From: Tubiluchus corallicola
Taxonomy: Eukaryota > Animalia > Priapulida
Direction of reading: 5' to 3'
Length of the DNA stretch: 64,000 nt
Assembly (NCBI GenBank): GCA_030141605.1
Contig: JAQGDQ010000133.1
Coordinates: forward strand, 248,001 to 312,000
Each line of letters starts with the position of its first letter. The first letter of the stretch is position 1. This document shows, in pieces, positions 122 to 56,944 of this stretch. The position numbers and the translations under genes are program-made. The notes beneath the pieces are model-generated. The model did not search any database and was not told where the DNA came from. It was given only the letters and a program-made list of their open reading frames with translations.

Positions 122-899
122 CGTCTGCTACCAAGCTGATTTAGAGGCGTAAACTTGTTATATAGCAGCCCGATATGCATGTGTAAATTAAAATTGCTGC
201 AGTAGACTCATCAAGCCGAACTTAATGCCACTAAAGTTCTCAGCAGCCAAATTCTCACTTGGTTCTTCTTGTAGTTGCATTTTTAATAAAATTTTAAAAA
301 TAATGACAAACTTTCCAATCACCCCGTGTAAAAATCCTTCATCAAAACATTAAAAGTAAACAATATAGTAATAATAATAATAGCACAAGTAATATGTTAA
401 ATGGTTAAAAAATAACTTTAAACCTTTCGCTTTACAAAATTGTGTAATTGTGCAATCAGTATTTCAACTTATGAAATTACATAAAGCAACAAAGTATACA
501 AAATTCTCGGCTGAAACAGGAAATGCAAGAACAGAATAAAACTAAGTTTAAGTTTTTACTTTAATTTTCGTAATAATAATGAAAGAAAACACATACGATG
601 AGAATAAGAAAGTAATTCATTGAAGTAAAAGTTCGCAACACACACTTACCTATGTGAAGCACCTGTGTGTCACTTTCTTTCATCTCTCTGCGAGCTTCTC
701 ACTTGAATATCGCTGTTCACCTGTCTCTAGCGCAGAAGGACTGGCGGGGATACGTGGATGGAAACACTCCCAGACTCCTTGCTGTTTTAATTATTAAAAT
801 CGAACTCCGCAAATGATAGGCAGGTTAACGCGAATGAGCACTCGTTGTCGCTGACACAACATTAGTAACTCTGGTAGAGATTTTGCTCGTCTTCCCAGT

Positions 900-2640: not shown

Positions 2641-5600
2641 TTAAGCAATATGCTGTACATTATTTATTATTTAATTATTATTATTAATTCGAAATAAAGT
2701 GAGAAAAGCCATTTTTACACAATACAGAACCGCGTTTTTAATCATTGTAATTATTTGTACAAAAGGCATTCAAACAAATGACTTGTCAACTTGTTGTTGC
2801 GGTATGCTTTGAAAATATGAAACGTATACCTGCTGCCTAAAATGACAATGATTACTTTTCACCATATTTGGTCGCAATACAAGGCCGCGCGCATGTAACA
2901 AAGTAAATGGGTATCAAATATTGAAACAGATAAGCTGAACAATAGACATTGTAACTGGTCGATTAAAAGAGGATGGGGATGGCTCCGAGCGCTTGCAGAT
3001 GTGCAAACAGGGAAAATGCGCAACCAACAAAGTTTGGCATTATCTTTGTCGTGTGCGCCTATCGCTTGCCGTTTCCGATTTCGCATTTCCTACGTTTGAA
3101 CTTTACACCACGTTTGGAAACTGTTCACATGGGTAAATACTCTCCAATGTTTGTGAGACAATTTGGTCTCGTGTCACAATGATCCTGGCTGATACTTATC
3201 CGGTCACTTCAGTTGAAGTGGTCTTGTCCATGACTGTACACTGGTCAACAAGGCAGGCGGACACTGATGAAAGGAACTCACTTTAGAACAAGAGCCACTG
3301 AACACCGAACTAAAGCAGTCAGCTGTAATTATGCAGAGCTTCTACACTTGAAGGGGCAGCTGATTTAAAAACCAGAGATGCCTGAAGACACTTAATTATA
3401 AGTAGAACATAGCCCATTGTCACTAACATTTTAATAGTAGGCCTATACATTTTATAAGCTTAAGTTAAGCTCTAGCTAATACAATAAAAGTCGAAAGTGC
3501 AAATTTGAATGCTCGGAATTTATCGATTTTGACTAAATGTTAGAAGTTAAGATCACACTAGATATTATCAATAAACATTTATATTGATTTGCATAACGTT
3601 TGCCCTGGACTGGAATATAAAGCCAGAAACATAAAATACTAAAAACATGCATTTTTAACAGTTATCTCTATTGCGTTTCTTTTAAGGAGGTCTGGTGACA
3701 CTTTTCTGTTGTCACCAGTAAGTTGTCATGGATATTGTTGCTTCGGGTTAATGTTTAAGAAAATTGGGATCATTCTGCTTAAACACAGCAGAATTTCTGG
3801 ATGTAATGAATTGAACGAAAAACGATAATTGAAAAGATTCTTAAAATTACGTTTTAGCTGGAGGCTATTAACAGCAGAAAAACTGGAAAATAAAGCGTCA
3901 AAGATGGGAAAAGGCTAAAATTAATAGCAATACAGCAATAGCGACAAATTTGCCAAAAGTCTTAAAAACATATTTTAAACGAATGACTCGTGAAAGACAC
4001 GTTTAAAGTTACGGGTCTTGTCACTAATAGCTCTGCAAAGTTTGTTAATAATCGTCCAAGCTATCACCTTGTAAAGTCTAAAATCAAACAATTTAACAGA
4101 CTTTCAATACGAAACGCAAACAGCTGAGACAAGGCATGGGTCTTATTATCCTCGCAAGTGAATTCCTAATTTGAAGGCTTTTCTCACCATATGACAATGA
4201 AAAGAGGAACCACATGGAGCGCTGCGTGTGCGAGCTGTAAGGTTTCAAGCAATCAGCGTCCCAGATATTTTGTGCCAACTTAGCTGAGATAACAAAAAAA
4301 GAAGAAAAATCGCGTGTGTTTCCTCACCACAACACGCAGGCTGACATTTATATGGTTAATCATAACGATCTAACCGAGGTCATTTGCAGAATTCTTAGGA
4401 GCTTGCCCAGATTAAGATGGTTCGCATTGGGAAAGCAACAGTTCGGAAGAAAATCAATTTTAGTTATTTATATCGTCACGTGATCTGTCGAAATATAAAC
4501 ACAATATATACAGCGTATATCTGTAGGAATGTCTGTAGGAATTTCTGCCACATTAAGAATTTGTTAGCACGCTTGTTAATAAATGGCAAATGCACATTAG
4601 AACTTAATCATAAAAACCTTGATTACTATGCTTCAAGCAATTAAATTATGTAGAAGTGTTCTAGGAATAGCTATAGTCGTTAAAAAGAACAAAAATAACC
4701 ATGTCTTGAAAAGATAGAGGATCGTTTTCCAGAAATGTAGGAAGAGCACATCATAGCCTATTATTGTCAGTAGGCCTCTACTCCAGTACATTCAATATTA
4801 TATTATACGTTAAGAAAAAAATCTTTCCTTTCAACTCTTTGTATGTTTTTTATTGTGAATTTCTGAGTTTTATTGACAACACTGCATTTTTGTGGAGTTT
4901 TGTAACCAGAAATAAAACTTAAAACACCATATCATATATGTATATATTTATGTATTTATATACATATACAAATATATATATATTGTTCAACTGACCATGA
5001 TAGCATAAGTTTCTCGTGAAATATTCGTGCCTAGAGTTTGATGAATCTATCGCAATAAAATCATGTGCTACACGAAGGGTATTAAAAGATACTGAAAAAT
5101 AACTGGAAATGTTTTGTCAGATTATTATAAGATCAATGGCAACACCTGAGGCAGGGCGAAGGCTCGCCATTTCCCTCTTCTCTAAGTACCTGTTTGCATG
5201 CCTTGTGTCATTAATATTGATAATAACGATATAATCAAGAGGCTGAAGTTGATTTAGCAGGAGTATCACCTGAAGTGACGTGAACTAATAACAAAGATGT
5301 AGTCTGCCTGATGCAAACTACATTTCAGCATTTTTTATTTTCCAGAAATCGAGTAACAGTAAAAAGAGAGAAATACGCATTTAATGAATAAAACGCATAA
5401 TTATGTTTGGTCAATCTGATAAGCCACACCGTTACATCACACTACAAAACCTTCCAACACAGCCACACAGATGTTCAATTTACACAAACTATAGTAATAC
5501 ACATTACACATACAAAAACAAATACATTTTGATGGTTCTGCGACTCCTTTTCGTAGTACTTCGTGGAAACTCCTTGAAAATAAGGTATATTTCGATCCTA

Positions 5601-9020: not shown

Positions 9021-9324
9021 GTCACAAAGGGATTTGATTTTCTGGGGAAACTGTGTTACATGAAGACCGGTTAGATGAGAAACCAGTTACTGGGGTAAAT
9101 CTGCCAGAAAGGGTTGATGACGTATTCCCTTTATGGGTTAAAGCTGTTAATGCAACACGTATTTAATCCTACATAAATGATCTGTGAACTATTTGATTAA
9201 ATTTATATTAATCATACAGTAATTATTGTATTGAAATTGATACAAAATTGTGCAATTTTAATAATTTTCGTTAGTTAATAAATTAGGAAAATAATAAATA
9301 AATCCTAATCCTACTAGGCAAGAA

Positions 9325-9440: not shown

Positions 9441-9621
9441 AGCGCATAAAATAACTAAGGTGGAAACGATGAGGGGAGGCAGCGGCGAATGGCAGCCAAA
9501 CTTACAATGCTATTAACGTCCAATTGCAAATAGATTTTGGGGTGTCCCTTTGGTATCGAAATTAACCATAACTTTCTTATTGTGTTTGTCTGCTTTGTCC
9601 CAAAAATTTAACTAAAGAGTG

Positions 9622-11536
9622 TTAAAACTGTCGTAAATGGTAAAGGCCAAACTGAAAAAAATGACGGAAAAAGCCGAACTGTTTGACTAGCTGGATGATC
9701 AAAATGATAAAGTTGAATTGACCAAAACCTATAAGCTTATTAAAGCATAGTTTTTTGTGTCATTTTCCATTTTTGGTCTTATTTTTATAACAATAGATTT
9801 AATTTGGCCTAAGGTAAGTCTCAGTGTACAGAATGTACTTAAACCGTGTATTGCAGGTAAGTTGTGGTTAAAACGAAAACTTCGTTAGGAGCCTGCTGAG
9901 GTTGTAGGCCTAATTATTATAAATGTATTCATTAATCTTGATTTGCTCGAGAGAACTTAGAGGCACTATAATGACTGCTGCTTGCATTTTGTAGAACAAA
10001 ATTTAATGTAGGCCCTACTGCATGGCTCGCTCGATGTAAATTAGACATACTTGGGTTATGGGGGCAGGGTGGGCATGGTAGCTTTGTACTTTTTAGTGAG
10101 TACGCCTAATTGACGTCAAACAAATTGACGGTCTATCGCTCCGCCCCCGCTGTAACTTAAGCACACTCAGCAGCATTCGGGACAACAGCTCACGAAGGAC
10201 AACAACTGTCTAAGCTAAACTAAACTAATGTCTCATCAGCAGATAAACTGATTGCACTTTTCATAAACACAAATTTGCAGACCAGCAGCTATTTTTGCAC
10301 GAAATTAATTTCAAGTAGCCAAAAAATGACTTTTAAATTTAAACAGAATGTAGAGACGAAGTTTCAAAGCACTACAAAATACAGAAACATATATTAAAGA
10401 AACTAAACCAGTTAGCCTTGGTTTACAATAAATGAGTTACAAAAGTATTGTCTTTGTTGCCTTTGAACACACGAACATCATGCCTGCGATGTATTTTCCT
10501 ATATTAACATATCATGTGCTCGTCTGCAAGATTTGTTCAGTTTTTGTATTTTTCCGTTTGTTAGGTTAGGGAAGTGGAATAAATTTGATTGTTCCATTCC
10601 ATAGACAACCCGCATGTTGAATGCCTGAGTAACAAGTCCCAATGTCATCTTTTAACCATGATTATAACCAGAAAAATAGCTTAAAATTAATAATAATACA
10701 TTAATGTATAATATAAGTTTTGACCACGTTTGAATTAATTTTGAGTGTGAAGATCTCATTGAAGTTTATAAAAACTGGCCAGAAAAGAAAACATTTTATT
10801 TTGTCCTTATTTAAAGTTAATTAAACAGCTGCTTTTATCTAACTTCCGAAGGAAAAAATTAAACTAAACTGCGTATTTTCTTGATTGCAAAATGGTTTAA
10901 TCAGCAACTCATAGACGTAAGTGTTGTGCATTTCTTTCTATAAACGAAACTGGACTGTTTATTTCCACTGATTCACTTGCAATTTCAATTATCAATAACA
11001 AAATCTAGAACCAGGCCAATATTTTTCCCGCTATCTAATGAAAAGTTGAGCATTTTTCGTAACAGTATTAGAGGCAGTTGTAGCTAATTAGCTAAATGTC
11101 CCGAACGAGCCTGGGTTAATTAAGCTGATTTGGCAGTCAACGAAAATGACTGACATTATGTTAGACGTCAGTTATGGCGGTTGATAAACAAGTAGGTTCT
11201 AGGCGCGCCTAACAAAAGGCAATAATTGCTATACACGTACTCACATCGTTTTATACTTTTTGCAATACATGCCTAGATGCAGTCATATTGCATGCACTGA
11301 TTGCAGCCATGTAGTAGTTTTAGTCCTTTACTCACCAGTATTACAAAAAATAATGCCAAAACCACCAAATTTACTTCTGGGAATAAAAAATTCAAGATAA
11401 CAAAAATGTAAAATTTCTATTATAGAGCGCATGGTCGCAGGCACTAAGGTGTCCAAATGTTAGATTTCTTTGGCAATAAATACAATTATTTTTCACGAGT
11501 ATTTTTTATAATTATGTATACACACACACGCACACA

Positions 11537-11576
<40 letters not shown>

Positions 11577-12031
11577 CACATCAATATATAAAATTTGATA
11601 TGGGCCGTATGTTAATTCCACCATTTGTTTTTTGAGTGCTCTGTTTTTAAAGGAATTAACATGCTACAATTAGTCTAACCCAAAAAATGTAAAGTAGGTT
11701 TTATATAATTATTATCTTAATAAAACACTTGGGGTTCAAGCAATTATTTGCATCATGCTTCATTAACCTGCCAGATAATTTACAGATTTGTTGAAAATGT
11801 TAATTTTAACTATATTATACGCTGTTTTGCTCGAAAATTTCTATTATACTTTATAAAACTGGTAATTTTTGCTTTTCTACAAACTGCATTAGGCCTACGC
11901 TATAAAAAATTAAGAAAGCAATCTCTCGAATATCCTTACATTCATTCCATAATGTTTTGGCTTTCTATTTTCGAGGCTAACTCACTGTCCGCCCGCCAGA
12001 CTGCTGCTACTAGTCGTTGATTTGTGCGCAT
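9622..12031 (-). CDS. Candidate spliced 38-aa single-pass membrane microprotein MRTNQRLVAAVWRADKVNLVVLALFFVILFGLYHLRQF; exons 12031-11986, 11376-11336, 9651-9622
   Basis: ATG with A at -3 next to the promoter. Splice sites: donor A|gtgagt, acceptor ttttttattcccAG, donor CTG|gtgagt, acceptor tttttccgtcatttttttcAG. Phases (1, 0) are compatible and give one continuous hydrophobic helix across two junctions. Confidence 0.55.
11519..11580. repeat. (CA)n/(CACG)n microsatellite
   Basis: Direct reading. Confidence 0.9.
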
Positions 12032-12039
12032 TTTTCAAG

Positions 12040-12165
12040 TTTTGTGCTCTCTGCGCAAAATCAGCAAGTGGCGTTCACATCCGGGCTATCGATATGTAGA
12101 ATACTAAAATGGCTGCGTTAATAAAATGGCGGCATTTTTTGCTGTAAATGTTTAGCGCGAAAACA
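12040..12165. promoter_or_regulatory. Bidirectional housekeeping/proliferation-type promoter
   Basis: DRE palindrome TATCGATA (12087-12094), YY1-type AAAATGGCTGC and AAAATGGCGGC (~12107, ~12123), E2F-type GCGCGAAA (~12155). Splice donors point outward on both strands (11985 minus, 12463 plus). Confidence 0.6.
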
Positions 12166-14074
12166 GCATTCGTCTACGGTTCAGTTCTAAATTTTCATTA
12201 GAGAGGGGCAACTGTGTAGATTGTAAACCAAAAGCACTAGTTAAAATTAAAATAAATAATTCTTTTCTGTAACGCCGGGAGAGAAATGACAGCTTTATAG
12301 CCATTAGAGAAATATTAGAATAGCCGCTGTGAATCGCCTTTCAACCCAGCGAGCTTGAATTCAGAATGCAAAGTAATTTCAGGATACTATATAGGCAGTG
12401 ATAAATGATCTGATGCACATTGCTGTGGAACTGACTACATTACAACTCGTTGGTAAAGTATGGTATGTATCTATTATTTTCTACTTTGTAGTGTATCTAT
12501 AATATTATTATACTTTGTAGCTTGAAACCAGACTAATTTGTAATTGTTTGCTACAACATCTAATGTCTATCGTTTATAATAGCTTTAAATGTCTTTAAAT
12601 GTTAAATGTTTTAACTATTTGAAAGTTTATGAAAGGATTTTGTAAATTTGCTGCAGTATTTGTTTGTTTATATTTATAAACGATTTTAGTATGCTCTAGA
12701 ACTTGTTCAAGTGATTATGAGAGCCTTTTCACAAGTAGCCACTGCAGCAGTGATAAACAAACTTGAACGAGTCTGCAGCTAATACTAATAGCTAATAATA
12801 GAGTTGCTATGAAATAGAAATTGGTGTTTGTAAAGATAATGATTACCCTCATACAAGGTTATTATTAGAGTTACAAAAATAAAAACCATTTAATATAGAC
12901 TATAATGTAGTTTAGTGAAGACAACATTGCAGATATAAGAAGTACGTTGCAATATATGAAAAACAACTCGTACATTACATAAATCTCAATTTCAGGTATA
13001 AAATTCAAATTCAGTTCAGCTCAGTTTTATTTTTCAACTGTGAAGTTGAAGTTGCATGATTTAAACAAACTATCATAGAAAATGTACTAAAATATAATAT
13101 TAAACATTTCAGTTGCTTTCCTATGTTTGAAACTGAAAAAGACAGTTTTCGTTTATTGCTTTATGACCTCTAAGTCACTTTTGACCTGGTGCCAGCAGGT
13201 ACCTTTCAACTTTTCTCCTCACTTGTAGATTTTAATGTCGCAGGTATTGTGACGTATTTTTACGTCTGCGGTTCTTTGGGTTTGCCCCTTGAAACAAACG
13301 TCTTTACGTCTGCTGTACTTTGGATTGCCCATTGCCCATTGGAGATAACGTATTCTCCTTCAAAAGCAAGTATAAAATGCACAAGTGATGAGTTAATTTG
13401 AGCCCAGAGATTGTCAGACAATGATTGTTACCTTCTATGACTTTCTAGTTGTTCTAATAACCTCTGACATTGATTTAGCTGGGCGTTGTTCTACTTTTGT
13501 ATGCTATATTTCAAACTATGTTATAGGCCTTTCAAAGAGAAAATACAGTGTGCGTCATAGACAATGTGTCACATTTTACCCCTGGATACGTCAAAACTAC
13601 TCCGTTTCCTTAGTAACAAGGTCCTGCCAAGTTTTAGATTCTGTTTTCACCAGTTTTTATCGTTTGCTGACAAGACTCATGAAGAAGTCGTCAAGTGCAA
13701 AACTTTTCAACAAAAGTGATCGTTGACCTTGAACTACACCTAGAAAGTCATTATCAGCTTATGCCATATTCTATCTCGTATCTGTCTGTTACTATGTTGA
13801 TTAGCGTTAGTCACTTACCACTCCACGTTAATTCTGGCCTGAATTGTGAGTGAGTGGGTAGTTTCGCCTGCTTTATTCTTGGCCATTTCGCTTGTTTTGA
13901 GACGATTTGTTAACGCATCCAAAGCTAGCTAAGACACCTCTGCCGGGTTCAGTATCTTTACAAAATTATCATTAATAATGAACTAGATTCCTGTCATTTA
14001 AAGCATTTACATTAAGTAGGCCCTGTCACTGAGTGCTAGAGCTTGGCTTATAGAGAATGCTGAAATGTTCTCTT

Positions 14075-14086
14075 CTCGCTCCCTTT

Positions 14087-14147
<61 letters not shown>

Positions 14148-14195
14148 CTCTCTTTCTCTGCCTCCTCGTCTCTCTCTCTTTTCTTCTTTCTCTTT
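14075..14195. repeat. (CT)n microsatellite
   Basis: Direct reading. Confidence 0.9.
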
Positions 14196-15473
14196 CAGCT
14201 GTTCTTTAGTTATCTACAGCGGTTTGACTAATGACTGTCAAAAATCAGAATAAGTAGAAAATCAGAAAGTATTTAAGGAAGTCAACTTTGTTTTTTAAGT
14301 TTGTTTTGAAACTTCGTTGCTGCAATTTCAAGTTTTTGGGACGAAATTGCTTGCTCAAAGCAATTTGCATTGTATCTTTTACTGCATGTAATTACTTCAA
14401 ATTCAATTGATTTTCATGGGATTTGAAATAAAGTTTAATGAATAATGGCTATAATAAATGAAAACACCACTTATTAGAGGTTTTGTGAGCTATACAGATT
14501 TGTAAACATCTTGGGTTGCATTTGCTCAATAAATTATGCTCCTTCGCAAGATTTTTTACAGGTTCTTTTAGGGCAGGGGCCAGACCCTAGTTCATTATCA
14601 AGATAATCCTCTGAGGTTTACACGTTGAACTGCTAAAGTCACAGTTATATTCTGATGCGTGTGACATCTTCTCTCCCAACAAATCAGTTGCCAAGCTTTG
14701 CATTGCTTAACTTTGGTACCCACCGCGATTGCTCACTATTGCGTATGTGAATGACTCAACATGATTCGGTACCTAATCGTTCCGATGTTACAAATCTACT
14801 TTTTTGCTTTAACGAGTTTTGCATTTTTTTTATTATATAATGCTTATTAATCAGTACTGCAGTTAAAACAAACTACCTTTTATTGCGCATTATCGAATTT
14901 ATTACATTTTCCGTGAATTTTATTTTGTATGATTACATAGAATTACTATGTAACAAGTAGACTTGTGACTTTTCATAAGCGCATCGTGGCTTTCTGTAAG
15001 CGCACACTGCTTAAACTAGCTCAGACTCCTGCAGCAGAAATATAAAATATATAAATATTCATGCAAAAATATAACAAAATTAGCTACCTCATTTTTTTTG
15101 TAAAAATTTTTGACCGAGATTCTTTTCAGGTGATGAATGACATCATTGGTGGAAAAATGGGCGTTCAAACTGCGAGCGCCCAAGCGTGAAATTATTGCAA
15201 CTTTAAGGTGTTTTTACTATTTGCACGAGGCACTATTTAGTTATTAAACTTGTATTACTAAATCCTAACATTTTTATTGAACTATGAAATATGCCTAACT
15301 TCTCAGGAAGGCTTGGCCTTTCCTTTAAGAGTATGTTGCGCAATGACTAAGCACGTGTATCGGAGTTGTATTAATGCAATTAACCGTTGGTAAAAACACA
15401 TTGTTCGCGTGGGTCTTTGTGACAATATAAGCGCATCGTTGTCAATGTCAGTTGAGTCACTATAAATTATTAT

Positions 15474-16845: not shown

Positions 16846-18279
16846 TAGTGACGTCATGTAATGGCGCCGTCGGAACAGTATTGCTGGAGATTTAAAATGA
16901 AAACAAACGAAAATTCCTTTCAGCGCGAATACGATATGTGCATAAAATTGTTGTAAAGTAGTGTAATTTTTTGAGGCGATTTTTCTGAAACCTACTTCAG
17001 GTGCTCCTTGCCCTTTAAGTGATTAATGATTGTAGATCGATTAAAATTTTGAATTGCTGTAGTTTCTTTTAAAATGATGTTAATTTTAATTTTTCACGGT
17101 TTTACTTGCTGTTATACAATTATACAATTTGTGCTATTTGTTTTATTGACTTCTAAAATTAACCCTTGCTTGTAGTATACTGTCAGAAGACCGGAAATTA
17201 AAAAACTTGTTGTAAATCATGATGAATTTTCAGTTATTGATAAAGATCAATCAGTCCATTCCCTTCTTCGTCAAATGGTGTCAGTCTTGTAAAACTACAC
17301 TTTGTGGGATGTGAACTGCTGTTGATAAGATTTCTAATCGACCATTTAGCGATCGGTATCGACTGTTTGAAACGAAGTGTGCCGGTGTACCATCTGAAAT
17401 AAAAACACATTCATTATACCCTCCCCGTAATTCAAACCCAGTTTTAAGTTACCGAGGCGTATCTATGTTAAGTTCAAAGCGTCTTCTGGGATATCTTAAA
17501 GCTAGTTTAGAAATACCCTTTCTAGTTTCAAATTACCCGCTCCATAAATGAAGCTTTACACCGTTGAACTTATTTTTTCGTTCTACGTTATAGTAGTTTT
17601 CTAAATAGCAAACTCACTGCAATTAAAAAGTGCGATTTTTTCAGATATTAAAGAATAATTTTGCGCGAGAGTAGCTTTGTCACACTTTTGTTATTCTTAA
17701 TTTAACAGATAAAATTTGAGTGGCAACTATAATTAGTAATTGAAAGCATACCACATGCAGATATTTCAAATTAGTACATCAAATTAACATCACATTTAGT
17801 GAATACCCCGAAGCAATCTTTTGTCTTTTATATCTTGTTGTACAGCATTATTTATTAATTTAATGTTATTTATAATTTGAATACTTCATACCTGACATTT
17901 CCTATACCAATACATTAGTTTTGAGCAATGTAATCGATCTTTTGTCGAATTGCTTGATTTTATACTCATGATTAGGAGTATAATCATTATTTGATTTGCC
18001 GCTATGACAAATAAAAATCGTTAGAAAAATTTGTCGGTAAATTATTAGAATCTGTCAGTCTGATCAATTAAATAACTCAGAAGTTGACTGAACACATAAA
18101 AGAATGCCTCATAACCCCGTGTTCTAATATTGCAAAGATGGGCTGGCATTTTTCCTGTTTTTACGTCTGTGTACTTTTAGCACGTCACGGCACTTGTGGC
18201 GCACGCTTTCTTATAATTCTGAGTACACGCACGATATATGCAGGTGAAAATGAGAAGGTAAGTTAATCTTAGGGCGGCT

Positions 18280-21205: not shown

Positions 21206-22041
21206 GGCTCCAATAATTGCCCTGGACTGTTTTGTTCACATTACTGATTTTGGCTGGTCACTTCATTCACGTCTGAACATCATGAATGAGACACCTTTGT
21301 TGGTTCAGTATCTTATCTTAGAAGATTAGCCTTGATAGTGAGCCGGATTCCTGTTTTACTACAAACGTCCCATTGAAGATGTGGAACGGTATATAATGTT
21401 TTGAGCAGTGCGCAAAACAAGGTAAAGCATGTTTGGCTTTGCCAGTTTCTAGTATGTCTCCTACTCTCTCTTACCTGCCTGGTTTCACAACATCAATGTC
21501 ACTCATTTACTGGCATTAGTCTGATAGTCCCAAAGACATACGGACAGTCAAAGTAACAGACAAGCACATGACGATCACGACCATTCAACTTAATCACTAT
21601 TTGTGTTAGGTAAAGTTAGGTAATGTAAGAGCAGAAGATAAAGTTGATGATATTCAAGTGAAAGTTATGTGGCACCTAATTGGAATTAAAGTAGTAGTAA
21701 CTAATATCAAGCAAAATGTTCTGATAAAATGGGCTACAAGAAAGTGACCCAATAGAAGTGATGCGATTTGATTGTGATCCACACTTCAATTTTCGTGTAA
21801 TTGTGTAGACTGATGTAAGCCATTCTACAGTACCTGTGAGGAAATAAGATTGGCTGGCTTACTGAATGATGAATTGACTGGCACGAAAACAAAACAAAAC
21901 AAAAATGAAGGCATTTTACAGTCCTTGGGATCTTGTTTGTGCTTTGGTTACAAACTGAATGCACATTCTTGGGTTTCATTTGTAATACAAGTATTTGGTT
22001 GTAAGCTGCTTATTGAATATTGTGATTTTGTTTAATTTCAG

Positions 22042-24157
22042 GATAAATCTCCAACTTTCTGGCAGTTTTGTGAAAGATGGAAAGCAGTATTTGATCTTGA
22101 ATGCTGAAAATGATGCGGATACTAATGTATATAAACACAATCAGCAGGATCAATCATTATCAAGGAAAACATCAATAACATCTAGCATGTCATCTACTTC
22201 CATTTTGCAAGTACCGTCTCAACAGATGATAACGTATTCTCAGGTGCCACTGCCACATGCTCCTTTGTCGCGCGAACAACCAAATGCAGTTAACAAAAGC
22301 CCATCCAAAGTTTTGGTGTACCCATCTTTACAGAAAAAAGCCAAGGATGTCTACTTTGCAAGCACAAGATCTAATAAACCAAACCAACCACATCTGCTTG
22401 GTAATCTTGTCCCGAGAAGTCACTTTTTCAAAGTAGCAAGTTCTTCCCCTATGACATCTGCATCGTGTGTTCAGCTAGCTAGTTTACAGCTTTCTACCCT
22501 TGCAGAAAAATCTAAAGGTGACATTCATAGTGAATACCAGTACACTGTTAAACCACGTGTTAACATTATACAATCTGCAGTGCCACATGTTACGCCAGCT
22601 AATACGGCACCTAAAGTGTCACCTAATACGAAAAGTGTAATGCAACCTGTTGTGCCTGTTAAATTAGTGCCTAGTGTTGTGACAACTAATGCAGATCGTT
22701 TAACAAAAACTGATGATAGCACTGATCATGACTATATTGTTAGACCAACCTCATTACCAATTTTGAATTTGCATGCTCTAAAACATGCTGTGAGTGCTGT
22801 AAATTCAAATCCTGCTGTAAGTTCAAGCATGCAAAAAGGAAAACAGGACCAAATCGGTAATATAGTTATCAAGAAGGTGGAGACGTTAAAGGTGAAAGAT
22901 GTTGCTACACAGTCCTGCCAAAAAGAACTTCCTTGTGTTCCGCATGTGAAGACAAAGACAGAAGCAACTTCCCTTGGTAAATTAGCAGGGTTGGGTGACT
23001 TCTCAAATATTACTATTAAGAAAGAAGTAAGTTCTCCTATTAAGGCAGAAAACTCAGAAGAGGCAATGTCTAGTGATAGCAGTATATCTTTTGCAAGGGC
23101 GAAAATTAATATAGAACCAGACTGTACAGAAACATTGATTCAGTATCCAATAAACCCGGCGCAAACAAATTGTAGCTTTTCGTTAAGCGATACGCCAGAT
23201 TTTTACACAACAGTAGAATCGAAACATAAAGCAGACACTATAAACGCTGGTGAGAATATGCACATCTCTAAATCACAAGAGGATGAATTTGTAAATGTGT
23301 GGGATACTGATGATGATTCTACTGATGATGTCCTTTTAGAATTGCTGCAAAGTTCTGCAAAAAATTCTGCAAGCACCAGAAAGATTTCACAGCTTCCTGT
23401 TATCCACAATAACATCTTAATTCGTCCATGCTACGTAAAGTTGGAAAGATGCGATGGTTTTATTGCTGCCGGAACATCTAATGTACGCTCCCGTTTGACT
23501 ACAGATGAGGTAACAACAACGAAGAGTGGTAGAACTATTTTGATAGTTAACTCAAGCGATGTAAAAGTCAAGGAACATCGAACAAGCAATGCAAAAACTC
23601 CGACCATGTATAAGTTTAAGTTTAGGGTTAGCAGTGGCAAACAGTACGAGCTGTCAGGACAGTTAGTGCGCATCAAAGGACGAGAGGGGCTCTTTTTACA
23701 TAGCATGTTCAGTGGTAAATCATTTTTGTTTCCTGCGAGTGCGAGCCAGCATTCTTGTGCAGTTGTGAGTTCTTCAACATCGACATCTAATCTACCAATT
23801 TCATCAGATAGTAATTCCTTACATATCAATGATGCGGTTAACAAACCATCTTCAGCATCTAGCAGTCATTGTTCAACAACTCCACTTTCTTATGTTGCGT
23901 CATCTATCAAAACTGGAACTTCATCATCAGCTCCACTACCTTCTGCCACTGCCATGTGCATGGAAGGTGAATTGGCACAAACAGAGTCTACTGAGAGTTT
24001 AAGCAGATCAGATAGCATACCTAGTAAACTTCAGAAATGCGAGGAAGCACTGGAATCATCTCAGGAACGAATACGGCGGCTCAAGGAGTTACTAAAGAAA
24101 CAAGAAGCAGAACTGGAAGAACTGAGGACTAAAAACCTGTTTTCAGATGATAGCTAA
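22042..24157 (+). CDS. Large terminal coding exon of a LRIF1-like (ligand-dependent nuclear receptor-interacting factor 1-like) nuclear protein, ~719 aa in total
   Basis: 720-codon ORF with a tttcAG acceptor at 22041. The S/T/P-rich disordered body carries SUMO-type sites (IKKE, IKAE) and an HP1-box-like PCYVKL. The C-terminal coiled coil ERIRRLKELLKKQEAELEELR resembles the recalled LRIF1 terminus KIRRLKQVLREKEAALEEMR. Confidence 0.75.
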
Positions 24158-27152
24158 CAGGTCGTGTTTTGTGCAACAGACTGAAACAATTACAGATATC
24201 TTCTAGCAAACTTTATAGCAAAAGTGATAGATTGTAACTGTTGACAATGCAGTGGTGCATATAACTTGTTTAACTCAGATTCGAGAAATTCAGACATGTA
24301 TTTCATACATAAGTGGTTTACTTATTTGTTAGTAACGCAACGAAAGAAACATTACGTAAAAACAAAATATGTGATAAAAATACATGTATAGTACTAAATA
24401 TATAATGCGCAGAAAAATGAAACTAATATTATTAAAAATGCGATTTAAAATAAAGCAGGCATTACTGCAATTAAAAATAAGAAAAAATTAAATATGTTTT
24501 ATATCAGCAACATATGTTGAAAGTGACAAAATATTTGAGTTTCACTTGCAAATTTACGAAATATTAAAATTAAATACTTGACACTGTGCCACACACACAC
24601 AATTTTTCTTACAAATATTTTGCTTTTCCTATAAACATAACTAAACTATGAGTATGATGGATTTATAAAGATAATTTAATACAGTAAATAATATATGAAT
24701 ATTGTAAATATTAATGCTTTCTTCTCCTTTGTAGCACAATTAGCTTCTGTAATGGTGTATTGCTTATCACACTGTCTTTATTGTGTGTACGTAGGGGTAT
24801 CTACTGTAATTTGTTTACTTTAAGGAGTAGCACTAATAGTTGACAATTTGTCATTTGATGTTCCATTTGACTGTCTGAGAAATGTGTCTATTTACAGCTC
24901 ATTTTTGTTTAAGTGCATCATATTCTTAATAGGTTTACCAATTTGCTTTTAATAACTGCTATTAAAGTGAACATGTCAAGGCATAAATTATTGACCAACG
25001 AGGGGAATTCATTCAAGTTCAAGTGTTTGCTAAGGAGAGTGAACTTTCTTCAAGTTCAAGTTCACCAGATAAGTGAACACTTATTTTCACACTCATGTTC
25101 AGTAGAATGAGCTTGTCTTATCACTGTAGATCTCATATTTTGTTTAAGAGCAACATTAAAACAGTTTTCACCATTATTTATCATTGCAACATCATCATAA
25201 GCACTTGAGTAAAAATGACATACGTACCTGTGAACGAATCAGTATGTGATTAAACTTCAAGCATTTTTTCGTTTTATGGAAAATTAAAGCATCGATTTTG
25301 GTGCAAAGTCATAGCTAAACTACGCACAAGTGTGTAAGCTTACAGCTAACATATCAAAGTATGTTTGCTAAAAAATTGTTTCATTTCCTTTTATTAGTAA
25401 TTGCCTTGACAATTTGCAGTGTTATTTTTAAGTAGCATTATGAAAGGCTGTGATATTGCTGAAATCTATTTTAGCTTTGCCTTTTCCATTCTCAAGTCGC
25501 AATTATAGTTGTTTGTGCTTTGCTTTCACAGGACTTTTTGTAGTGTAATTATAGTTCATGGATTTAGCAAAGTTTGTTGCTTCTGAAATTATTAATTTAG
25601 ACTACGATGTTAATTTGGCATTTATAGATATTGAACCTCTTGGTCAAAGGATGATCAGCTGTAAAATTGAAATACAATATTACAGCAAGCTTTCTTCTTG
25701 CCAAATAATATCAGTAAACTGTTCCTATAATTTTGTTTTAAATAACTTATAACTTTGCTGATACGCAGATGAGCAAACTAAAATGATAAACTATAGCCTC
25801 TAGTTGTTAAACAGCGAAAATATAGAAATGTGCTGATTACAAAGATTATCAATTGTAATAGTCAGTTTGTTTGTTTGCTAATATAGCATTGTCAAGACAG
25901 CACAAAAATGTTTCTGAAAATTACCATTGCACAAGTTGTGGTTGTCATATGAAAACAAGCACACATGTGAATAAAAATGCTAAAACATAAAATTGCATTT
26001 GCGGGGTTAATATAGACACAGGAGCTAATAGAGCCCTTTCAAACTGATCTACACGTTGTATTCCCAACTGGTTGGCGAAAACACGAATTAAAGACTCACG
26101 TTTTGAAGGCATACTGATAACTTTGGGTCCTCTGTGTCAGTGTTTTTCTATATCTTGCAAACTTTAATTCTGCGCTTGAGCCAGTGTTTTGCATTCAGCT
26201 GTATATACACTTATCTTTATGTTCTTTATATGAGAACTGCAATTTCTGAATAACAGAAATTTTCACAAAAGTAGTGTTCAAAAACATTTTTGATATCAAA
26301 TGTTTTTTATGGCTTTCGTAGCCCCTTAAATAACATTTGAAGTAATTCATTTGATAATCTTTGTAGTCAGCACATTTCCATTTTTTTACTGTTGAACAGT
26401 CACGTGGTTTATTCATTTTTGTTTGTTTGGTGGTTGCTTTTGTGTAGCTAGCAACAGAAATGGGTCATTTTAAGGGAACTTTTAGCGACAGTTTGTTATC
26501 TTTAGCAATCGGAGAATTTGCCCTAATTGATACTACTTATTATAATTATAATGTACAGCAGTTGCTGTTCATAATTTGAAAACCATCTCGGGCTGTAATG
26601 TTTTAGACAAATAAAAAACCAGTTTAACTATTTTGAATAATCGCTTTCGTATATGTATATACGATTTCATTATATATACACTATACAATACATAGTGTTC
26701 CTAAATTAAGTAATTTTTGTAGTTCGACGTGTTTTAATTTTCTTATTTTGTATATGTTGTGGCTGTCTGGAACCTAGCTCATTAGCAGCGAAAATCCCGT
26801 AAGATGAGCATCAAATCAACAAGAGGTGATTCCACTCATCTGTGATTTCAGCTCACGCAGTCTTATATTTATTTATAGTTGTGATATAATAATTAGTTCA
26901 GGGAATGACTTTTTTGGATGTCAATCAACGTGCAGTTTTATTGTATCTGGGCTTTTTGTGACTTAGAGTAACATGTCTTTTAGTTTACCCAATAATATAG
27001 CACAGTAAACGAAGTATCTTAATCCTCCTGTCTAGCAAACTGTACGTGTTTTTAGGTATAATGAGCGCAAGACCATGTTATCTTGGGAGAATTTTCCAAA
27101 GGCAAATTTCACAACTCAAAGGGAAAGATAAATGGTTAGAGATTTTACGCCA

Positions 27153-27210
27153 AGTAACCGGACTTAAACCGAGCCTGATTAGTAAATTAGGGCGGGTGAC
27201 CAATTGGTAC
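27153..27210 (+). mobile_element. 5S rRNA-derived SINE segment
   Basis: gagcctgattagtaaattagggcgggtgacc. Confidence 0.5.
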
Positions 27211-29249
27211 ATTTTTTCAGTTTTTCAGGCAGTGGTTTCATCTGCCATACTGCTCCAAGTATTCCCTTTGCTGAAGTAGGTTGCTAGTTTTTTGTTTGTT
27301 TCTTCGTTTTTTGTTTGCTTGTTTGTTTGTTTTTCAGTTTACTTGAATCAACAAGTTGCAGATAACCTGTTGGGTAACCTGTACGCGTGTTAATTGGATT
27401 TTGTCTTTTGAACGTCTTATATTGTTAATACACGTTATACTCTTAACCTGGGCCGTACTTGTATTGCAAGCATGCACTATGTTTTAAGTAAAACGGAATC
27501 GTATTCTTGACTCTTGTATAATTGTATTAGTGCAAAAAGCCTCTTTTTCATTAACTTAGTTGCTAATTAGCAGGGCTTTTAATTACTTGTATAAACCTAA
27601 ATAAACCTAGTATCTTTATATGTATGTTAAATTGGAAAAGTGAGGCTAAAGAAGTATATTATAATTTATAATCTGTATAAAGATATTGTAGCTTGATGTA
27701 AGCCCCTGTAATTCACAAATCCTTGTAAAAAAGATATTATTAGTTTGATGCAAACCTTCAGTTCAGAAATCATAATAAATGTATGATGTGAGAAAAATAA
27801 TAACTTAGTTTTTTGTATTATACTTGTGGAATTTGCTTGACGTCCTCATAGCATCTATATAATTTCCACCTAGAATTAACAGGCAAGCGCTCTTGCTATA
27901 AATTTGTCCCAGATCGTAAGCCAGTGGACTCACTTATAATTTATGACTGAACGACTCTCCCAGACTATTAAAATAGGTAGTATTTCTTGGTTATCCTAAT
28001 GCTGCCTGCTTGTATCGGCCAAGTGCAACGCAAAACTCGCACTAGCTTCAAACAAGCGAGCAAGATCATAATGCCCAGATTATATACGGCCAAGAAACTA
28101 GTTGTAACAGGACCGGAAGCTAGCAAATTGTTAAAGAAAATCTTTGAAACGCAAGCAATAGCTAAAATCAGTGTGGCAGATGAAACCATTGAGAAGCTGT
28201 AAGAATTACTGACTTCAACAGCTTTCACGAGCCAATATGGAAAAAAATGCAACTGACATTTTTCTACAATTTTGACTGTTTCTTAAGCAAATAGTTCGTC
28301 ACTATAAAACTTTACAGAATAATCATTTTCCAGAAACATAATCATAAAATAAACAGTTATTTTACCAGAGCCTCTTTTAACACGTTGGCTTGGTACCAAG
28401 TTTGAAGAAATCTTGGTACCCACTGATGTCTAAATCTGACCACTGGGTACTGACATACATTGCTTCAACGAAAAATAGCTTTTCCCGTTTCATTGGTATG
28501 TACAACTAGTGATCCTGGTCTGGCCCTGGCAATGAGTTCATGTTCGCTCCAGTGTTGAAGAACAACAGGTCGCTAGTGGTCGCTCTTCTGACGTCTGTGG
28601 CACATGATTGGCTACGGGACATCAGTATAGGCTATTTAGCGACATGTCACACTCAGTGCACGTGTTGATGTGACGACTCGGCTGACTGACTACTATGATT
28701 TCTGGGATGGGAGTACGATTGTCTTGATCATGCTATCATCTCCGGTCAAGTATGTCACGTGAAACGCCAAATCATCGTCTACGAATTGCACTGAAACCTG
28801 CAGGCATTGCCTCATTCGGTTCTTGATTTCTTAACCGCAAAACAATGTAGGGAACGATTGCCAGAAACGATAGAGAATTCACCAAAGAATTCGTCTGCAA
28901 GGACAATATGTTATGAGCCTGTCTTAGAGCTCTTGTTCAGATGTTTTATGGGAGTGGAGGTGTCGGTTCGGTAGATGTAATTAAGATTTTGCTGAGAGAT
29001 TAATTAAGAGAGTAATTAAGAGATTAACAGCAAAATCTTACTGTTTTTTCTTATTTATTCTCCGCCATTTTAACTCTTAATAACTTGCAAGCCTTGTTAT
29101 AGGAAAAAATAAAATCACAATTTCCGGATTAGTAGACACTGACACAAACATTTATATACGTAAAAAATTAGTACTTAATATCAAAACAAAGAAAAGTAAT
29201 ACAACACTGATATTACAATTAATATATCCTAAATGACCACATACCTATT

Positions 29250-30560
29250 ACACAATATTTATACATATTATCTGATACCAATGGAAAACACCCGTGAAAA
29301 GGTAATTGACACAGAGCCAATTTTTAATTTCATTTAAATTACACATTTCTAAAAAAGCATTATTGCACTCAATAGCATTTATGGTATCTTCTATCACTGA
29401 AATAACGATTTCTTCCTCAGATGTCAGATGAAAACTGCTACTCACAATACTATCTTTAATTTTTCTCGCTTCATTTTTGTTAGTGAAATTAATGCAATAG
29501 TTGTTATATTTAAAGTTAAGCAATTGTAGATTATAACCTAAGACAGATCTTGTTGAAAATTCAGCTAGCCTAGCGAAAAAATTAACTAATGTATTGTAAC
29601 TGTTCACACAAGTTGCATAATATTGCACGAAACACTTCTCAAATTGTTTACCTAAACAAAAAATTTTTACTGATGTATTGTGAAATGAACCTGTGAGTTT
29701 TATTTGGCATCTTCCATAGTTTACGCATGGATATATTCCAGGCTGTATTAATATCACTAATGTAGGCATTATAAAATTTCCAAATTTGGCTACCGTAGAA
29801 AGCGTGACAGTAGGTCATAAATACTTTTGTTTTCATACTACTGTTGAGAAATGAAAAATTGCTAATTACACTATTAGCTGTGTGTATACGTTTACGACTT
29901 ACATTGTTAGCATCATCTGAATTAGAGGTTAGTACACAGTCAAGATGAACTGCCTCTGTGCACCAAGTCAGTGAAGTTCCTGCCAAAATAAGTTTTGGGT
30001 TAAAAGTGTTGGGTCTGTCATTATTTGCATAAAACATAATACATTTGCTTTTCACTTTATTCTTTTGAATGTTGACAAAATTTATATTAAAATTTCTGGC
30101 ATATTCTTGACATAAGTTTAATATTCTGCATTGCAGTTAGACTAGGGGCTAGCATAGATAAATCATCTGCATACGATAATGCACCACAATATTTATTTCC
30201 AACAAAGCACCCTAAGCCGGTTTAGAAAGTTTTACCAATAGCTGATCTAGATATATGCCGAATAATAGAGGTGAAATCACTGCCCCTTGCCTCCTGCTCC
30301 ATTAGGGACAGTGACGTTCTTAGACATTGTTCCAAGATACAATTATTCTTTGATTGGTGTACGTATTTAGAAGCAGGCGTATTGTAAGCTGAATCATTTA
30401 CAATAGTGTACCTTGTCAAAAGCTTTCGACGCATCAAGCAGGGTGCTATACACAATGAAATTATTTTTTATATAGTATTTTGCTGTTTCTTTTAAAATCA
30501 TAGTACGCATACTTGTAGACATTTTTTCTTTAAACCCAAATTGCTGATCTGACTTATACA
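29250..30560 (-). mobile_element. Decayed non-LTR retrotransposon (LINE; reverse transcriptase and C-terminus, possibly RTE-X-like)
   Basis: Frameshifted RT motifs on the minus strand: QFGFK, LLDASKAFDKVHY, VRQGAVISPLLFGIYLDQL, YADDLSMLAPS, TYCHAFYGSQIW, AWNISMRKLW. Confidence 0.9.
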
Positions 30561-30874
30561 AATGCTTGTATTTCTCATAATTTGTCGATGTTTTATGGTA
30601 TCATATCGCTGGTTTAATGTGCTTCGCTTTATTGAAAGTGGCGCTCAGAATAGGCCAGAAATAGCCGTTTTTGAAGGAAAAACTCAAAATTTTCCCGAAC
30701 CCACCTACCAAACTGGTGGGAAAGAACCCCCCAGACTTCTCTGGTATCCAGTCATTGTCCCTTAAAAGAAGTTCTGTATTTTACGTAGATTTTGTTAACA
30801 AGTGAAGAGAAACGCTTAATACGCTATTGTTACCAATGAATAAAAAATAAAAAATAATAATGAATAAAATTAGG

Positions 30875-32169: not shown

Positions 32170-53929
<21,760 letters not shown>

Positions 53930-55860: not shown

Positions 55861-56393
55861 ATTGTGTGCAATAACAAGTTAAGACAAAAATTAAAACTAT
55901 TACAAAGTTAAAAAATGCCCAAATGCTTGGTGTAGTTTAAATTTAAAATTGTTAAAGAATCCAACCATACTTGGATTTGTAAAAAAACACCACAAAAAAC
56001 TGGAAGTTAGCACGTCAAGACGCACTTTATGGACACAAGACGCAAATACAATTTCTGAGCATATTTTATATGCGAAGGCCACAACGCTAAAGCGAATGAA
56101 GCCAAACATTAGTAACTGTTGCGTTGCGCAGGTCGTCTAGGGACGCTGAAGCGCAGCAGAGCACGCCGCGAGACGCGGGCGGCCGTTTTGTATTAGAACT
56201 TCAGTAGCACCTTTGCACATGTGCAACCGATCCGGCAGAAAGTGGCACACGAGTTAGGACGTACTTGCTCCATCAAAATGGACAGCAAAGAAAACGTTTT
56301 GCTCCGTTTCCACAGTAACCGCCTGCAGTGCAATAAGATCCTGTGTTCAGAGTAGAAAAATGTAGCAGTTAATAACAGAGAGAACCAAGCAAC

Positions 56394-56684
56394 ATGTACA
56401 CTTACTCACGCTGGAAGATTGTTACGAGATTCGCTTACTGCCTACTGTTCGTTGTTCTTGATTTAGTGAAAAGTGAAAATTGGACGTATATAGATGACGA
56501 ACTTTTGCATGACGAGCGAATCGTTATTGTGGTCGCTGGGTTTTTTCCCAAGGACACCGAACTTCCGCAAGGGAAAATCGGTCGTGGAGTAATACCTGCA
56601 GTCGACTTGGCTGTGGAAGACATTAACAGAAATCCAAACATTCTTAAAGGATACAAACTTCAAGTTTACAAGAACGACAGCAAG
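56394..56684 (+). CDS. First coding exon of a GABA-B receptor (class C GPCR, subunit 2-like); the rest of the gene was not found in this window
   Basis: Signal peptide, then the Venus-flytrap start IVVAGFFP...GRGVIPAVDLAVEDINRNPNILKGYKL...NDSK. Phase-0 AAG|gtaaat donor just before the expected Cys. GC-rich promoter-like patch at 56120-56190. Confidence 0.85.
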
Positions 56685-56944
56685 GTAAATCGATTTAAGA
56701 TTTGACATTAATTTTGATACACTTAGTAATTTTACATCAGACATCAGATAATATGATTCTGTTCCCAACGATGCCCTACAATGCCTTTTGACAAAAGTCA
56801 TGAAGTTACACAACATATCCTAATCTATCGGCGAATTATGTAGAGAATAATAGCGTTTTCCGACAGCATAATGCACAAAACATGTAATTCTGCAGACTGA
56901 CAAGAAATAAACATTATGCATCGCCCAGACAGTAATTACATATA

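What the first reader, a model, noticed from the sequence alone, without database searches (positions are those of the whole stretch)
9506..12031. Hidden three-exon 38-aa membrane microprotein, probably the upstream cistron of a longer transcript
Seen: three minus-strand exons with strong canonical splice sites join in phase to MRTNQRLVAAVWRADKVNLVVLALFFVILFGLYHLRQF*. This has a basic N-terminus, one ~18-residue hydrophobic helix assembled across two introns, and a short basic tail. It is below the ORF-track size limit. Exon 3 continues ~115 nt past the stop to another strong donor (T|gtaagt at 9505), so the stop is not in the last exon; that is the layout of uORF or bicistronic mRNAs, or of an NMD target. 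From memory, the core aligns without gaps to the human MKKS uORF peptide (WRDYKVLVVMVPLVGLIHLGWYRIK vs WRADKVNLVVLALFFVILFGLYHLR, 9 of 25 identical). It lacks that peptide's P, H and W residues, so homology is unproven. This is the best candidate for an undescribed system in the window.
Basis: partly seen in the sequence, partly recalled or inferred. Interest (0 to 1): 0.8.

Follow-up and report, generated by a model that had tools for sequence, protein, structure and literature searches.

The report
Likely three-exon 38-residue membrane microprotein gene
Three short exon-like stretches beside a promoter-like site in what is likely an invertebrate genome join in frame to a 38-amino-acid reading frame with a predicted membrane helix, so this is likely a small membrane-protein gene of a familiar kind, but no RNA or relative was found and a second gene on the same message is unsupported.

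Summary
The exons, splice dinucleotides and 38-aa reading frame are as described. The best evidence for coding is exon 2: 11 of 13 second codon positions are T in the frame set by the upstream ATG (P about 0.0003-0.002). An exon like it arose in 1 of 60 simulated windows. Two YY1-like motifs lie 75-100 nt upstream. The 'upstream cistron' reading is weak. The 9505 donor is of a type found four times inside a long open exon of this window, and no second cistron or MKKS-like frame appears in the 9.5 kb downstream. The uMKKS1 match (9 of 25) is real but lacks the His-Leu-Gly-x-Tyr core, and the human ORF has no intron. No RNA run and no homologue were found; only single-exon frames were searched, not the spliced peptide. 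Best reading (0.4): a stand-alone housekeeping single-pass microprotein, likely mitochondrial. Main rival (0.22): a chance ORF in non-coding exons. The scan has noted uMKKS1-like loci in other genomes, not this gene. Interest 0.3.

The parts
12106..12132 (.). Two YY1-like motifs (12106-12115 and 12123-12132), promoter/TSS-like; CpG-rich patch 12001-12300
   Evidence: 2 of the 5 matches in the 64-kb window lie 17 nt apart, chance about 0.009; 14 CpG per 300 nt against a window mean of 7.7. The motif is recalled; its link to housekeeping TSSs is from PMC2249607, in mouse (passages). The TSS is not mapped.
12075..12080 (-). Start-stop (ATG TGA) element; further 3-5 codon ORFs begin at 12135, 12169 and 12198
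   Evidence: relevant only if they lie inside the 5' leader
11986..12031 (-). Exon 1 coding part: ATG with A at -3, 15 codons plus 1 nt, basic amphipathic segment
   Evidence: hydrophobic moment 0.565 over residues 1-16, P 0.05 (residue shuffle) and 0.011 (nucleotide shuffle, open frames); an in-frame stop two codons upstream rules out an N-terminal extension within this exon
11377..11985 (-). Predicted intron 1 (609 nt), contains a GTGC microsatellite
   Evidence: donor score 2.5, acceptor 4.4; microsatellite seen
11336..11376 (-). Exon 2 (41 nt): N-terminal two thirds of the hydrophobic helix
   Evidence: donor 6.8, acceptor 4.4; T at 11 of 13 second codon positions, P 7e-4 mononucleotide, 3e-4 dinucleotide shuffle, 16 of 10237 T-matched window stretches
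9652..11335 (-). Predicted intron 2 (1684 nt), largely multi-copy repeat
   Evidence: contig depth 271-880 over the bins 9838-11493 against 2-12 at the exon 1 and exon 3 bins in DNA-like run X1
9622..9651 (-). Exon 3 coding part: end of the helix, 5-residue tail and TAA
   Evidence: acceptor 6.0, rank 27 of 7164; a comparable hydrophobic-then-basic continuation follows 14 of 137 acceptor-like sites
9506..9621 (-). 3' untranslated part of exon 3; holds an 18-codon ATG ORF and, in the third frame, 14 codons with a weak zf-CHCC match
9500..9505 (-). Possible donor (GTAAGT, no G at -1); use unproven
   Evidence: score 1.3, rank 357 of 7434; decoy-type site
9257..9262 (-). Candidate polyadenylation signal ATTAAA if exon 3 is terminal (3' UTR about 380 nt)
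   Evidence: no AATAAA between 9660 and 7800

Best explanation
Three exon-like segments join in frame to a 38-codon ORF, which is likely a stand-alone housekeeping gene for a single-pass microprotein that would be inserted after translation into an organelle membrane, more likely mitochondrial than ER, and would act there as a small accessory subunit of a membrane complex. Shown: the sequence, the phases, the coding-type periodicity of exon 2, the basic amphipathic residues 1-16, the 15-17 residue hydrophobic segment and the 5-residue tail. Inferred: transcription from about 12.1 kb, use of both introns, translation, and a 3' end near 9240 or one non-coding intron at 9505. Inferred from established rules: a helix ending 5 residues from the C-terminus is tail-anchor-like and so is inserted post-translationally. 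The short helix, basic flanks and amphipathic N-terminus favour mitochondria (about 50% given coding); the high hydrophobicity favours ER (about 40%). The partner complex is unknown.
For: Exon 2 codon periodicity beyond composition (P 3e-4 to 1.6e-3). With within-exon shuffles, P(ORF of 38 aa or more and equal hydrophobicity) = 0.0017. In 60 simulated windows, 1 of 546 exon-like acceptor/donor pairs had an open frame this hydrophobic. Exon 2 is the only minus-strand pair in the window with acceptor >=4 and donor >=6. The ATG has a -3 purine and the right phase, which 8 of 70 GT[AG]AGT donors show, this one included. The N-terminus is amphipathic. YY1-like doublet. Exons 1 and 3 lie in low-depth DNA while intron 2 is repeat-filled. 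Tail-anchor sorting rules: PMC10200711 (passages). Single-TMD microproteins are common among verified mitochondrial SEPs: PMC7066179 (passages).
Against: No junction is shown by RNA and no homologue is known, so conservation is untested. The window was picked from a very large scan, so about 0.02 per window for exon 2 alone is not decisive. Donor 1 is only moderate (rank 189 of 7434). Exon 3 is chosen by acceptor strength alone, and its continuation has about a 10% chance rate. A second frame also stays open over all three exons for 57 codons without an ATG, which shows that open frames come easily here. Four short upstream ATGs would compete if they are in the leader. The helix is hydrophobic (mean KD 2.97 over 15 residues) and the tail carries only +1, which points away from mitochondria.
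Confidence: 0.4

Rival explanations
1. The exons are real but non-coding (a lncRNA or the 5' leader of a distant gene), and the hydrophobic ORF is a chance product of a T-rich exon, at most a regulatory uORF.
For: Exon 2 is 49% T. An ATG-led, open, in-phase partner exists for 12 of 70 donors by chance. The ORF is at least 30 codons long in 16% of shuffles. Selection from a huge scan inflates rare coincidences.
Against: T is concentrated at codon position 2 (11 of 13) in exactly the ATG frame, P about 0.001 after matching composition. Exon 1 gives an independent amphipathic signal. No snoRNA in the introns to explain a host transcript (Rfam: 5 matches in 1-22 kb, 4 on simple repeats and 1 in low-complexity DNA at 19.1 kb; no C/D-box pattern).
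Confidence: 0.22
2. One reading: the 38-aa ORF is real and is the first cistron of a longer spliced mRNA that uses the 9505 donor and carries a main ORF further down, possibly the gene whose leader begins near 650-900 and leaves the window.
For: GTAAGT 116 nt after the stop. Acceptors exist downstream at 5145, 4283 and 510. Bicistronic smORF mRNAs are known in invertebrates (sloth1/2, PMC9681215, passages).
Against: The donor is of the decoy-prone type, with chance about 0.07. 113 of the 125 frames listed in 1-12.4 kb were scanned against Pfam (plus 8 from elsewhere): 7 of 121 hits at E<=0.05 with about 6 expected, none a chaperonin. No ATG-led ORF behind a good acceptor looks like a second cistron. 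The -3 purine at the ATG would limit leaky scanning (inference).
Confidence: 0.13
3. Exons 1 and 2 are the cytosolic tail and signal anchor of a longer type II membrane protein. Exon 2 would splice to a different acceptor (9611, 9547, or exons beyond the window), and the 9651 exon would be a minor or poison exon.
For: A basic tail plus short hydrophobic helix is the type II layout (established knowledge). The 9611 acceptor would give 61 aa with the stop beside the 9505 donor. The 9547 frame has a zf-CHCC-like 14-mer that ends in phase 0 at the donor (Pfam E 0.0045-0.016; PDB 7tgh_S6 E 0.84).
Against: Both alternative acceptors score below zero (-2.8 and -2.4) against 6.0 for 9651. The 31-aa 9611 frame hit only 2 repeat-rich proteins among 1.84 billion. 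No exon coding the Cys ligands of a CHCC finger was found upstream or downstream. No domain-coding exon in 9.5 kb.
Confidence: 0.12
4. It is a diverged uMKKS1/uMKKS2-family mitochondrial microprotein that has gained introns, lost the histidine and lost its C-terminal half.
For: 9 of 25 gap-free identities, including the Trp-Arg-x-x-Lys flank and Gly-x-Tyr (by eye); about 4.5e-4 per comparison under assumed compositions. Earlier unreviewed scan notes report uMKKS1-like ORFs in other invertebrates.
Against: The His-Leu-Gly-x-Tyr core with a preceding Gly, seen in human uMKKS1, human uMKKS2 and mouse uMKKS2, is not met. The human ORF is one 189-nt block (PMC13577902). 38 aa against 50-63. No MKKS-like frame in the 9.5 kb downstream. 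Over an assumed 700 comparisons, the chance of such a match is about 0.27.
Confidence: 0.06
5. There is no such transcript; the splice-like sites are chance intergenic sequence.
For: Simulated windows give about 9 exon-like pairs each, about 2 with a strong donor.
Against: Promoter-like doublet, in-phase ATG, periodic exon 2 and a strong third acceptor all fall within 2.6 kb.
Confidence: 0.07

Closest known systems
Human uMKKS1 / micro-MKKS63 (Q9HB66) and uMKKS2 (V9GZ13) (PMC11837024 passages; PMC13577902 passages; PMC7066179 supplement 3)
   Same: Short basic N-terminus, one hydrophobic segment, basic residue after it; 9 of 25 identical with uMKKS1 without gaps.
   Different: No His and no preceding Gly in the core; 38 aa with a 5-residue tail against 63 and 50 aa; ORF split by two predicted introns against one 189-nt block; no MKKS-like ORF seen downstream.
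Single-TMD mitochondrial SEPs as a class (PIGBOS1, MTLN, SMIM12, SMIM26, BRAWNIN; PMC7066179 Table 1, passage)
   Same: smORF gene, one TMD, under 100 aa; this is what it most likely works like.
   Different: Shorter than all 18 listed (53-96 aa); no sequence link to any was shown; location untested.
Sloth1/Sloth2 bicistronic smORF mRNA of Drosophila (PMC9681215 passages)
   Different: There the second ORF follows 5 nt after the first stop and the shared mRNA is shown; here no second cistron was found.
Sarcolamban / phospholamban / sarcolipin SERCA regulators (bioRxiv 10.1101/2020.07.19.211243 passages)
   Same: Length range 33-45 aa, N-terminal basic helix plus C-terminal TMD.
   Different: [quoted passage not shown]

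Membership tests
uMKKS1/uMKKS2 | His-Leu-Gly-x-Tyr core preceded by Gly at the end of the hydrophobic segment (shared by the 3 sequences seen) | tested here: not met
   Human uMKKS1 and uMKKS2 and mouse uMKKS2 have it; this peptide keeps only Gly-x-Tyr. Three sequences are a thin definition.
uMKKS1/uMKKS2 | ORF in one exon block | tested here: not met
   Human CDS chr20:10420549-10420737 (PMC13577902); here two predicted introns
uMKKS1/uMKKS2 | Lies in the leader of an MKKS-like chaperonin mRNA | tested here: inconclusive
   No chaperonin match in the 9.5 kb downstream, but the window ends there
uMKKS1/uMKKS2 | Significant profile match of the whole peptide | not tested
   The spliced peptide was not searched; by-eye identity is 9 of 25, with chance about 0.27 after an assumed 700 comparisons
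uMKKS1/uMKKS2 | Mitochondrial membrane location | not testable with these tools
   needs a tagged or endogenous localisation
Conserved-peptide uORF / bicistronic mRNA | A second ORF on the same mRNA | tested here: inconclusive
   None found in 1-9.5 kb; no RNA; sequence beyond the window unseen
Conserved-peptide uORF / bicistronic mRNA | Peptide-level conservation across species | not testable with these tools
   No related animal genome is held; metagenome scans were blank
Sarcolamban (regulins) | [quoted passage not shown] | tested here: not met
   Feature from the preprint passage; the only Trp here is residue 12, before the helix
NDUFS6 / zf-CHCC | Cys-His-Cys-Cys zinc ligands around the Gly-His-Pro core | tested here: not met
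   Only the His-bearing 14 codons match; no fitting Cys-coding exons
snoRNA host gene | Intronic C/D or H/ACA RNA | tested here: not met
   Rfam at E<=1 over 1-22 kb found none; no C/D pattern on the minus strand 2.8-12 kb; diverged H/ACA RNAs could be missed
Single-pass (tail-anchor-like) microprotein | One hydrophobic segment near the C-terminus, short polar tail, no cleavable signal | tested here: met
   Residues 19-33 uncharged, mean KD 2.97; 5-residue tail; a prediction from sequence only

The most novel reading that the evidence does not exclude
An unrecognised, intron-split 38-residue membrane microprotein, possibly a His-less offshoot of the uMKKS family, heads a polycistronic mRNA that splices at 9505 to further small ORFs (such as the 25-26 codon hydrophobic ORFs formed at the 510 acceptor) and to a main gene outside the window.
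Probability: 0.12. Interest if true: 0.55.

Novelty: new member of a known kind. Interest (0 to 1): 0.3.

Why it matters
If real, it is one more membrane microprotein gene that size-limited annotation misses, and one whose helix is assembled from three tiny exons, so six-frame searches cannot see it. It could seed a new smORF family once relatives are found. It would matter more if it proved conserved across phyla or polycistronic; neither is shown. As it stands it changes no principle and makes no open question directly testable.

Tried and rejected
RNA: no RNA holder listed. Run X1 behaves as genomic DNA nearly identical to the window (7 of the 8 listed contigs have 0-1 other letters over 270-900 nt and the longest has a 7-nt gap); none of its 15 listed joints matches the introns, and 19 more were not shown. 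Run X2 gave only one 35-nt repeat piece here and 4 short pieces under 90% identity on 21.9-41.8 kb, so it does not appear to hold this species and its blank says nothing. No whole genome is held. Homologue searches, all with unspliced single-exon frames and so of low power: Pfam, 0 families for 4 exon frames; exon 1 frame, no candidate; 9611 frame, 2 repeat artefacts; ESM Atlas, no usable lead for the exon 3 third frame or the exon 1 frame; an exact 24-mer of exon 3 in metagenome contigs, 0; no paralogue in the window by tblastn or blastn. Anchoring on neighbours to reach related loci or name the animal failed. Earlier scan notes: nothing near, among look-alikes or by sequence. NDUFS6 reading of exon 3: rejected as probable chance, since 7 of 121 frames hit Pfam at E<=0.05 with about 6 expected and no Cys exons were found. 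61-aa isoform via 9611: weak acceptor. snoRNA host: nothing found. The supplement of PMC7530721, which may give the taxonomic range and alignment of the MKKS uORF, could not be read. Seven files of the PMC4568590 supplement were not searched. No structure or complex prediction was run.

Full report
Context. The window is AT-rich (about 35% GC) and intron-rich, with sushi, MAM and ANF-receptor exons at 37-57 kb, so it is an animal genome. An earlier unreviewed note on the same genome calls it a probable non-arthropod invertebrate (not tested by me). No whole genome is held, and my attempts to place the animal through neighbouring genes failed.

Observation. The three minus-strand segments are at the stated coordinates, have GT/AG ends, and join in phases 1 and 0 to the stated 38 codons. 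The stop is at 9624-9622 and a GTAAGT follows 116 nt later. With a generic animal splice matrix (recalled frequencies, uncalibrated), three sites are good: donor 2 ranks 15 of 7434, acceptor 3 ranks 27 of 7164 and acceptor 2 ranks 81 of 7164. Two are moderate: donor 1 ranks 189 and the 9505 donor 357. Of 71 GT[AG]AGT hexamers in the window, 53 lack G at -1 as these two do, and 4 lie inside the 2.1-kb open exon at 22-24 kb, where they are evidently not needed. The chance of one within 170 nt is about 0.07. The matrix may underrate such sites: a presumed real plus-strand donor at 19749 scored 0.2.

Is it more than chance? Exon 2 is 49% T, which by itself favours hydrophobic codons, so I controlled for composition. 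In the frame set by the exon 1 ATG, 11 of its 13 second codon positions are T and the mean Kyte-Doolittle value is 3.11. This is reached in 0.07% of mononucleotide shuffles, 0.03% of dinucleotide shuffles, and 16 of 10237 T-matched stretches of the window's non-coding DNA. Shuffling within all three exons gives an ORF this long and this hydrophobic in 0.17% of 200,000 trials. For comparison, 4 of 196 unspliced ATG ORFs of 30-50 aa in the window are as hydrophobic, and all four are low-complexity repeats. In 60 Markov-simulated windows there were about 9 exon-like acceptor/donor pairs each, but only 1 of 546 had an open frame this hydrophobic. Further signals are weaker. Residues 1-16 form an amphipathic basic helix (moment 0.565; P 0.05 by residue shuffle, 0.011 by nucleotide shuffle). 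An in-phase open ATG with a -3 purine precedes 8 of 70 such donors. A hydrophobic-then-basic continuation follows 14 of 137 acceptor-like sites. Two of the window's five YY1-like motifs lie 17 nt apart, 75-100 nt upstream of the ATG (P about 0.009) (all). In mouse, YY1 motifs mark positions just downstream of housekeeping TSSs (PMC2249607, passages). In DNA-like run X1, intron 2 is multi-copy while the bins of exons 1 and 3 are low-depth. Against this, the window comes from a very large scan, so 0.02 per window is not rare overall; a second frame is also open for 57 codons across the three exons; and four tiny upstream ATG ORFs exist. My estimate is about 0.7 that exons 1-2 are coding and about 0.55-0.6 that the 38-aa form is made.

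Expression and conservation could not be shown. No RNA holder was listed and the one guessed-RNA run does not appear to be this species; these blanks are not evidence either way. The spliced peptide itself was not searched against protein databases. Single-exon frames found nothing, but 13-15 informative residues have little power.

Upstream cistron? This depends on the 9505 donor. I scanned 113 of the 125 frames listed in 1-12.4 kb against Pfam (11 low-complexity or microsatellite frames and 1 frame already scanned were left out; 8 frames from elsewhere were added). There were 7 of 121 hits at E<=0.05, about what chance gives, and no chaperonin. No ATG-led ORF of 25 aa or more behind a good acceptor looks like a second cistron, and no His-x-Gly-x-aromatic motif lies in a hydrophobic ORF in this region. 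An ATTAAA at 9262 would give an ordinary 3' UTR of about 380 nt. In Drosophila, direct NMD targets are not enriched for 3'-UTR introns (PMC3962487, passage), so even a used 9505 donor need not imply a uORF, a second cistron or decay; whether this holds in this animal is unknown. A small intron at 649-511 with good sites probably belongs to the leader of the next gene, which leaves the window, so a long-range splice to it cannot be excluded.

Alternative exon 3 readings. An acceptor at 9611 would give 61 aa, and one at 9547 would open 14 codons that match the zf-CHCC core of NDUFS6 (Pfam E 0.016 for 34 aa, 0.0045 when trimmed to 20 aa; PDB 7tgh_S6 E 0.84). Both acceptors score below zero. No exon supplies the Cys ligands, and the 9611 frame hit only two repeat-rich proteins. 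I treat both as unlikely.

Mechanism. Shown: a basic amphipathic N-terminal 16 residues (+3), an uncharged run at 19-33 (mean KD 2.97) and a 5-residue tail (+1). Inferred: a helix this close to the C-terminus is released from the ribosome before co-translational targeting, so insertion is post-translational (established knowledge of tail-anchored proteins). High hydrophobicity favours GET/ER, while lower hydrophobicity with a positive tail favours MTCH1/2 and the outer mitochondrial membrane (PMC10200711, passages). The features are mixed. I commit to mitochondria at about 50% given coding, because of the short helix, the basic flanks and the presequence-like N-terminus, and because single-TMD SEPs are frequent among verified mitochondrial SEPs (PMC7066179, passages and Table 1). 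A peptide with no soluble domain can hardly be an enzyme; an accessory or regulatory subunit of a membrane complex is the usual role for this class (inference).

Comparison with known families. The human uMKKS1 sequence in the supplement of PMC7066179 confirms 9 of 25 gap-free identities. Under assumed residue compositions this is about 4.5e-4 per comparison and about 0.27 over an assumed 7 registers x 100 families. Human uMKKS1, human uMKKS2 and mouse uMKKS2 share a Gly followed by His-Leu-Gly-x-Tyr; this peptide keeps only Gly-x-Tyr. The human ORF is a single 189-nt block (PMC13577902, passages), and PMC11837024 (passages) describes both as leader ORFs of MKKS conserved across mammals. Earlier unreviewed scan notes report uMKKS-like ORFs in several invertebrates, mostly ahead of MKKS (not tested here), which suggests that recognisable orthologues exist and that this genome may hold a better one. 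I do not file it as uMKKS. Sarcolambans match in size but need a TMD Trp that is absent (bioRxiv 10.1101/2020.07.19.211243, passages). Sloth1/2 show what a proven invertebrate bicistronic smORF looks like (PMC9681215, passages). PMC7530721, PMC13303939, PMC8448870 and PMC6173133 were seen as passages only and added nothing decisive; the supplement of PMC7530721 could not be read and may bear on how far uMKKS1 is conserved. My literature searches were by topic, not by this peptide, so I make no claim about its absence from print.

Verdict. A probable but unverified small membrane-protein gene: a new member of a known kind, with no family assignment. The bicistronic and uMKKS ideas are each minor possibilities. 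Interest 0.3.

Noticed in passing
window 9506-9547 (-): 14 codons in the third frame of exon 3 match the His-bearing core of zf-CHCC/NDUFS6 (Pfam E 0.0045-0.016) and end in phase 0 at the 9505 donor; no Cys-coding partner exons, weak acceptor; probably chance.
   Followed up: yes
window 463-683 (-): A 139-nt intron (649-511; donor 6.5, acceptor 5.5) joins an ATG at 683 with G at -3 to a 26-codon ORF with a hydrophobic end; likely the 5' leader, with a uORF, of the next minus-strand gene, which leaves the window.
   Followed up: partly
window 4188-4283 (-): Exon-like 96 nt with the strongest acceptor in the region (7.7) and a moderate donor (4.4); one frame is open and holds an ATG that would join the 510 acceptor in the same frame as the ORF above; no Pfam match.
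   Followed up: partly
window 21986-24157 (+): 2.1-kb open, apparently terminal exon ending in a coiled coil; from memory it resembles LRIF1, but Pfam gave only a weak coiled-coil hit and no homologue was found. Possible upstream exons end near 18258 and 19749.
   Followed up: partly
window 27000-29000 (+): Coding-like sequence broken by stops and frameshifts, with no Pfam match or homologue for the pieces tried; probably a decayed mobile element. A contig of run X2 matches 59 nt of it at 86%.
   Followed up: partly
window 29248-30800 (-): Fragments that read like a decayed reverse-transcriptase (LINE-type) element, by recall.
   Followed up: no
window 37869-53929 (+): Multi-exon single-pass protein with sushi, MAM and probable thrombospondin-type repeats and a C-terminal membrane segment.
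   Followed up: no
window 56376-56705 (+): Exon with a signal-peptide-like start and an ANF_receptor match, probably a class C GPCR or receptor guanylyl cyclase.
   Followed up: no
window 9838-11170 and 13978-15200: High-copy repeats by contig depth in run X1; the first fills predicted intron 2.
   Followed up: no
window 9552-12077 (-), spliced: A second frame stays open for 57 codons across all three exons without an ATG, directly after the start-stop element; it has a CTG in a good context in exon 1. An 18-codon ATG ORF with a strong context also lies in the 3' part of exon 3.
   Followed up: partly
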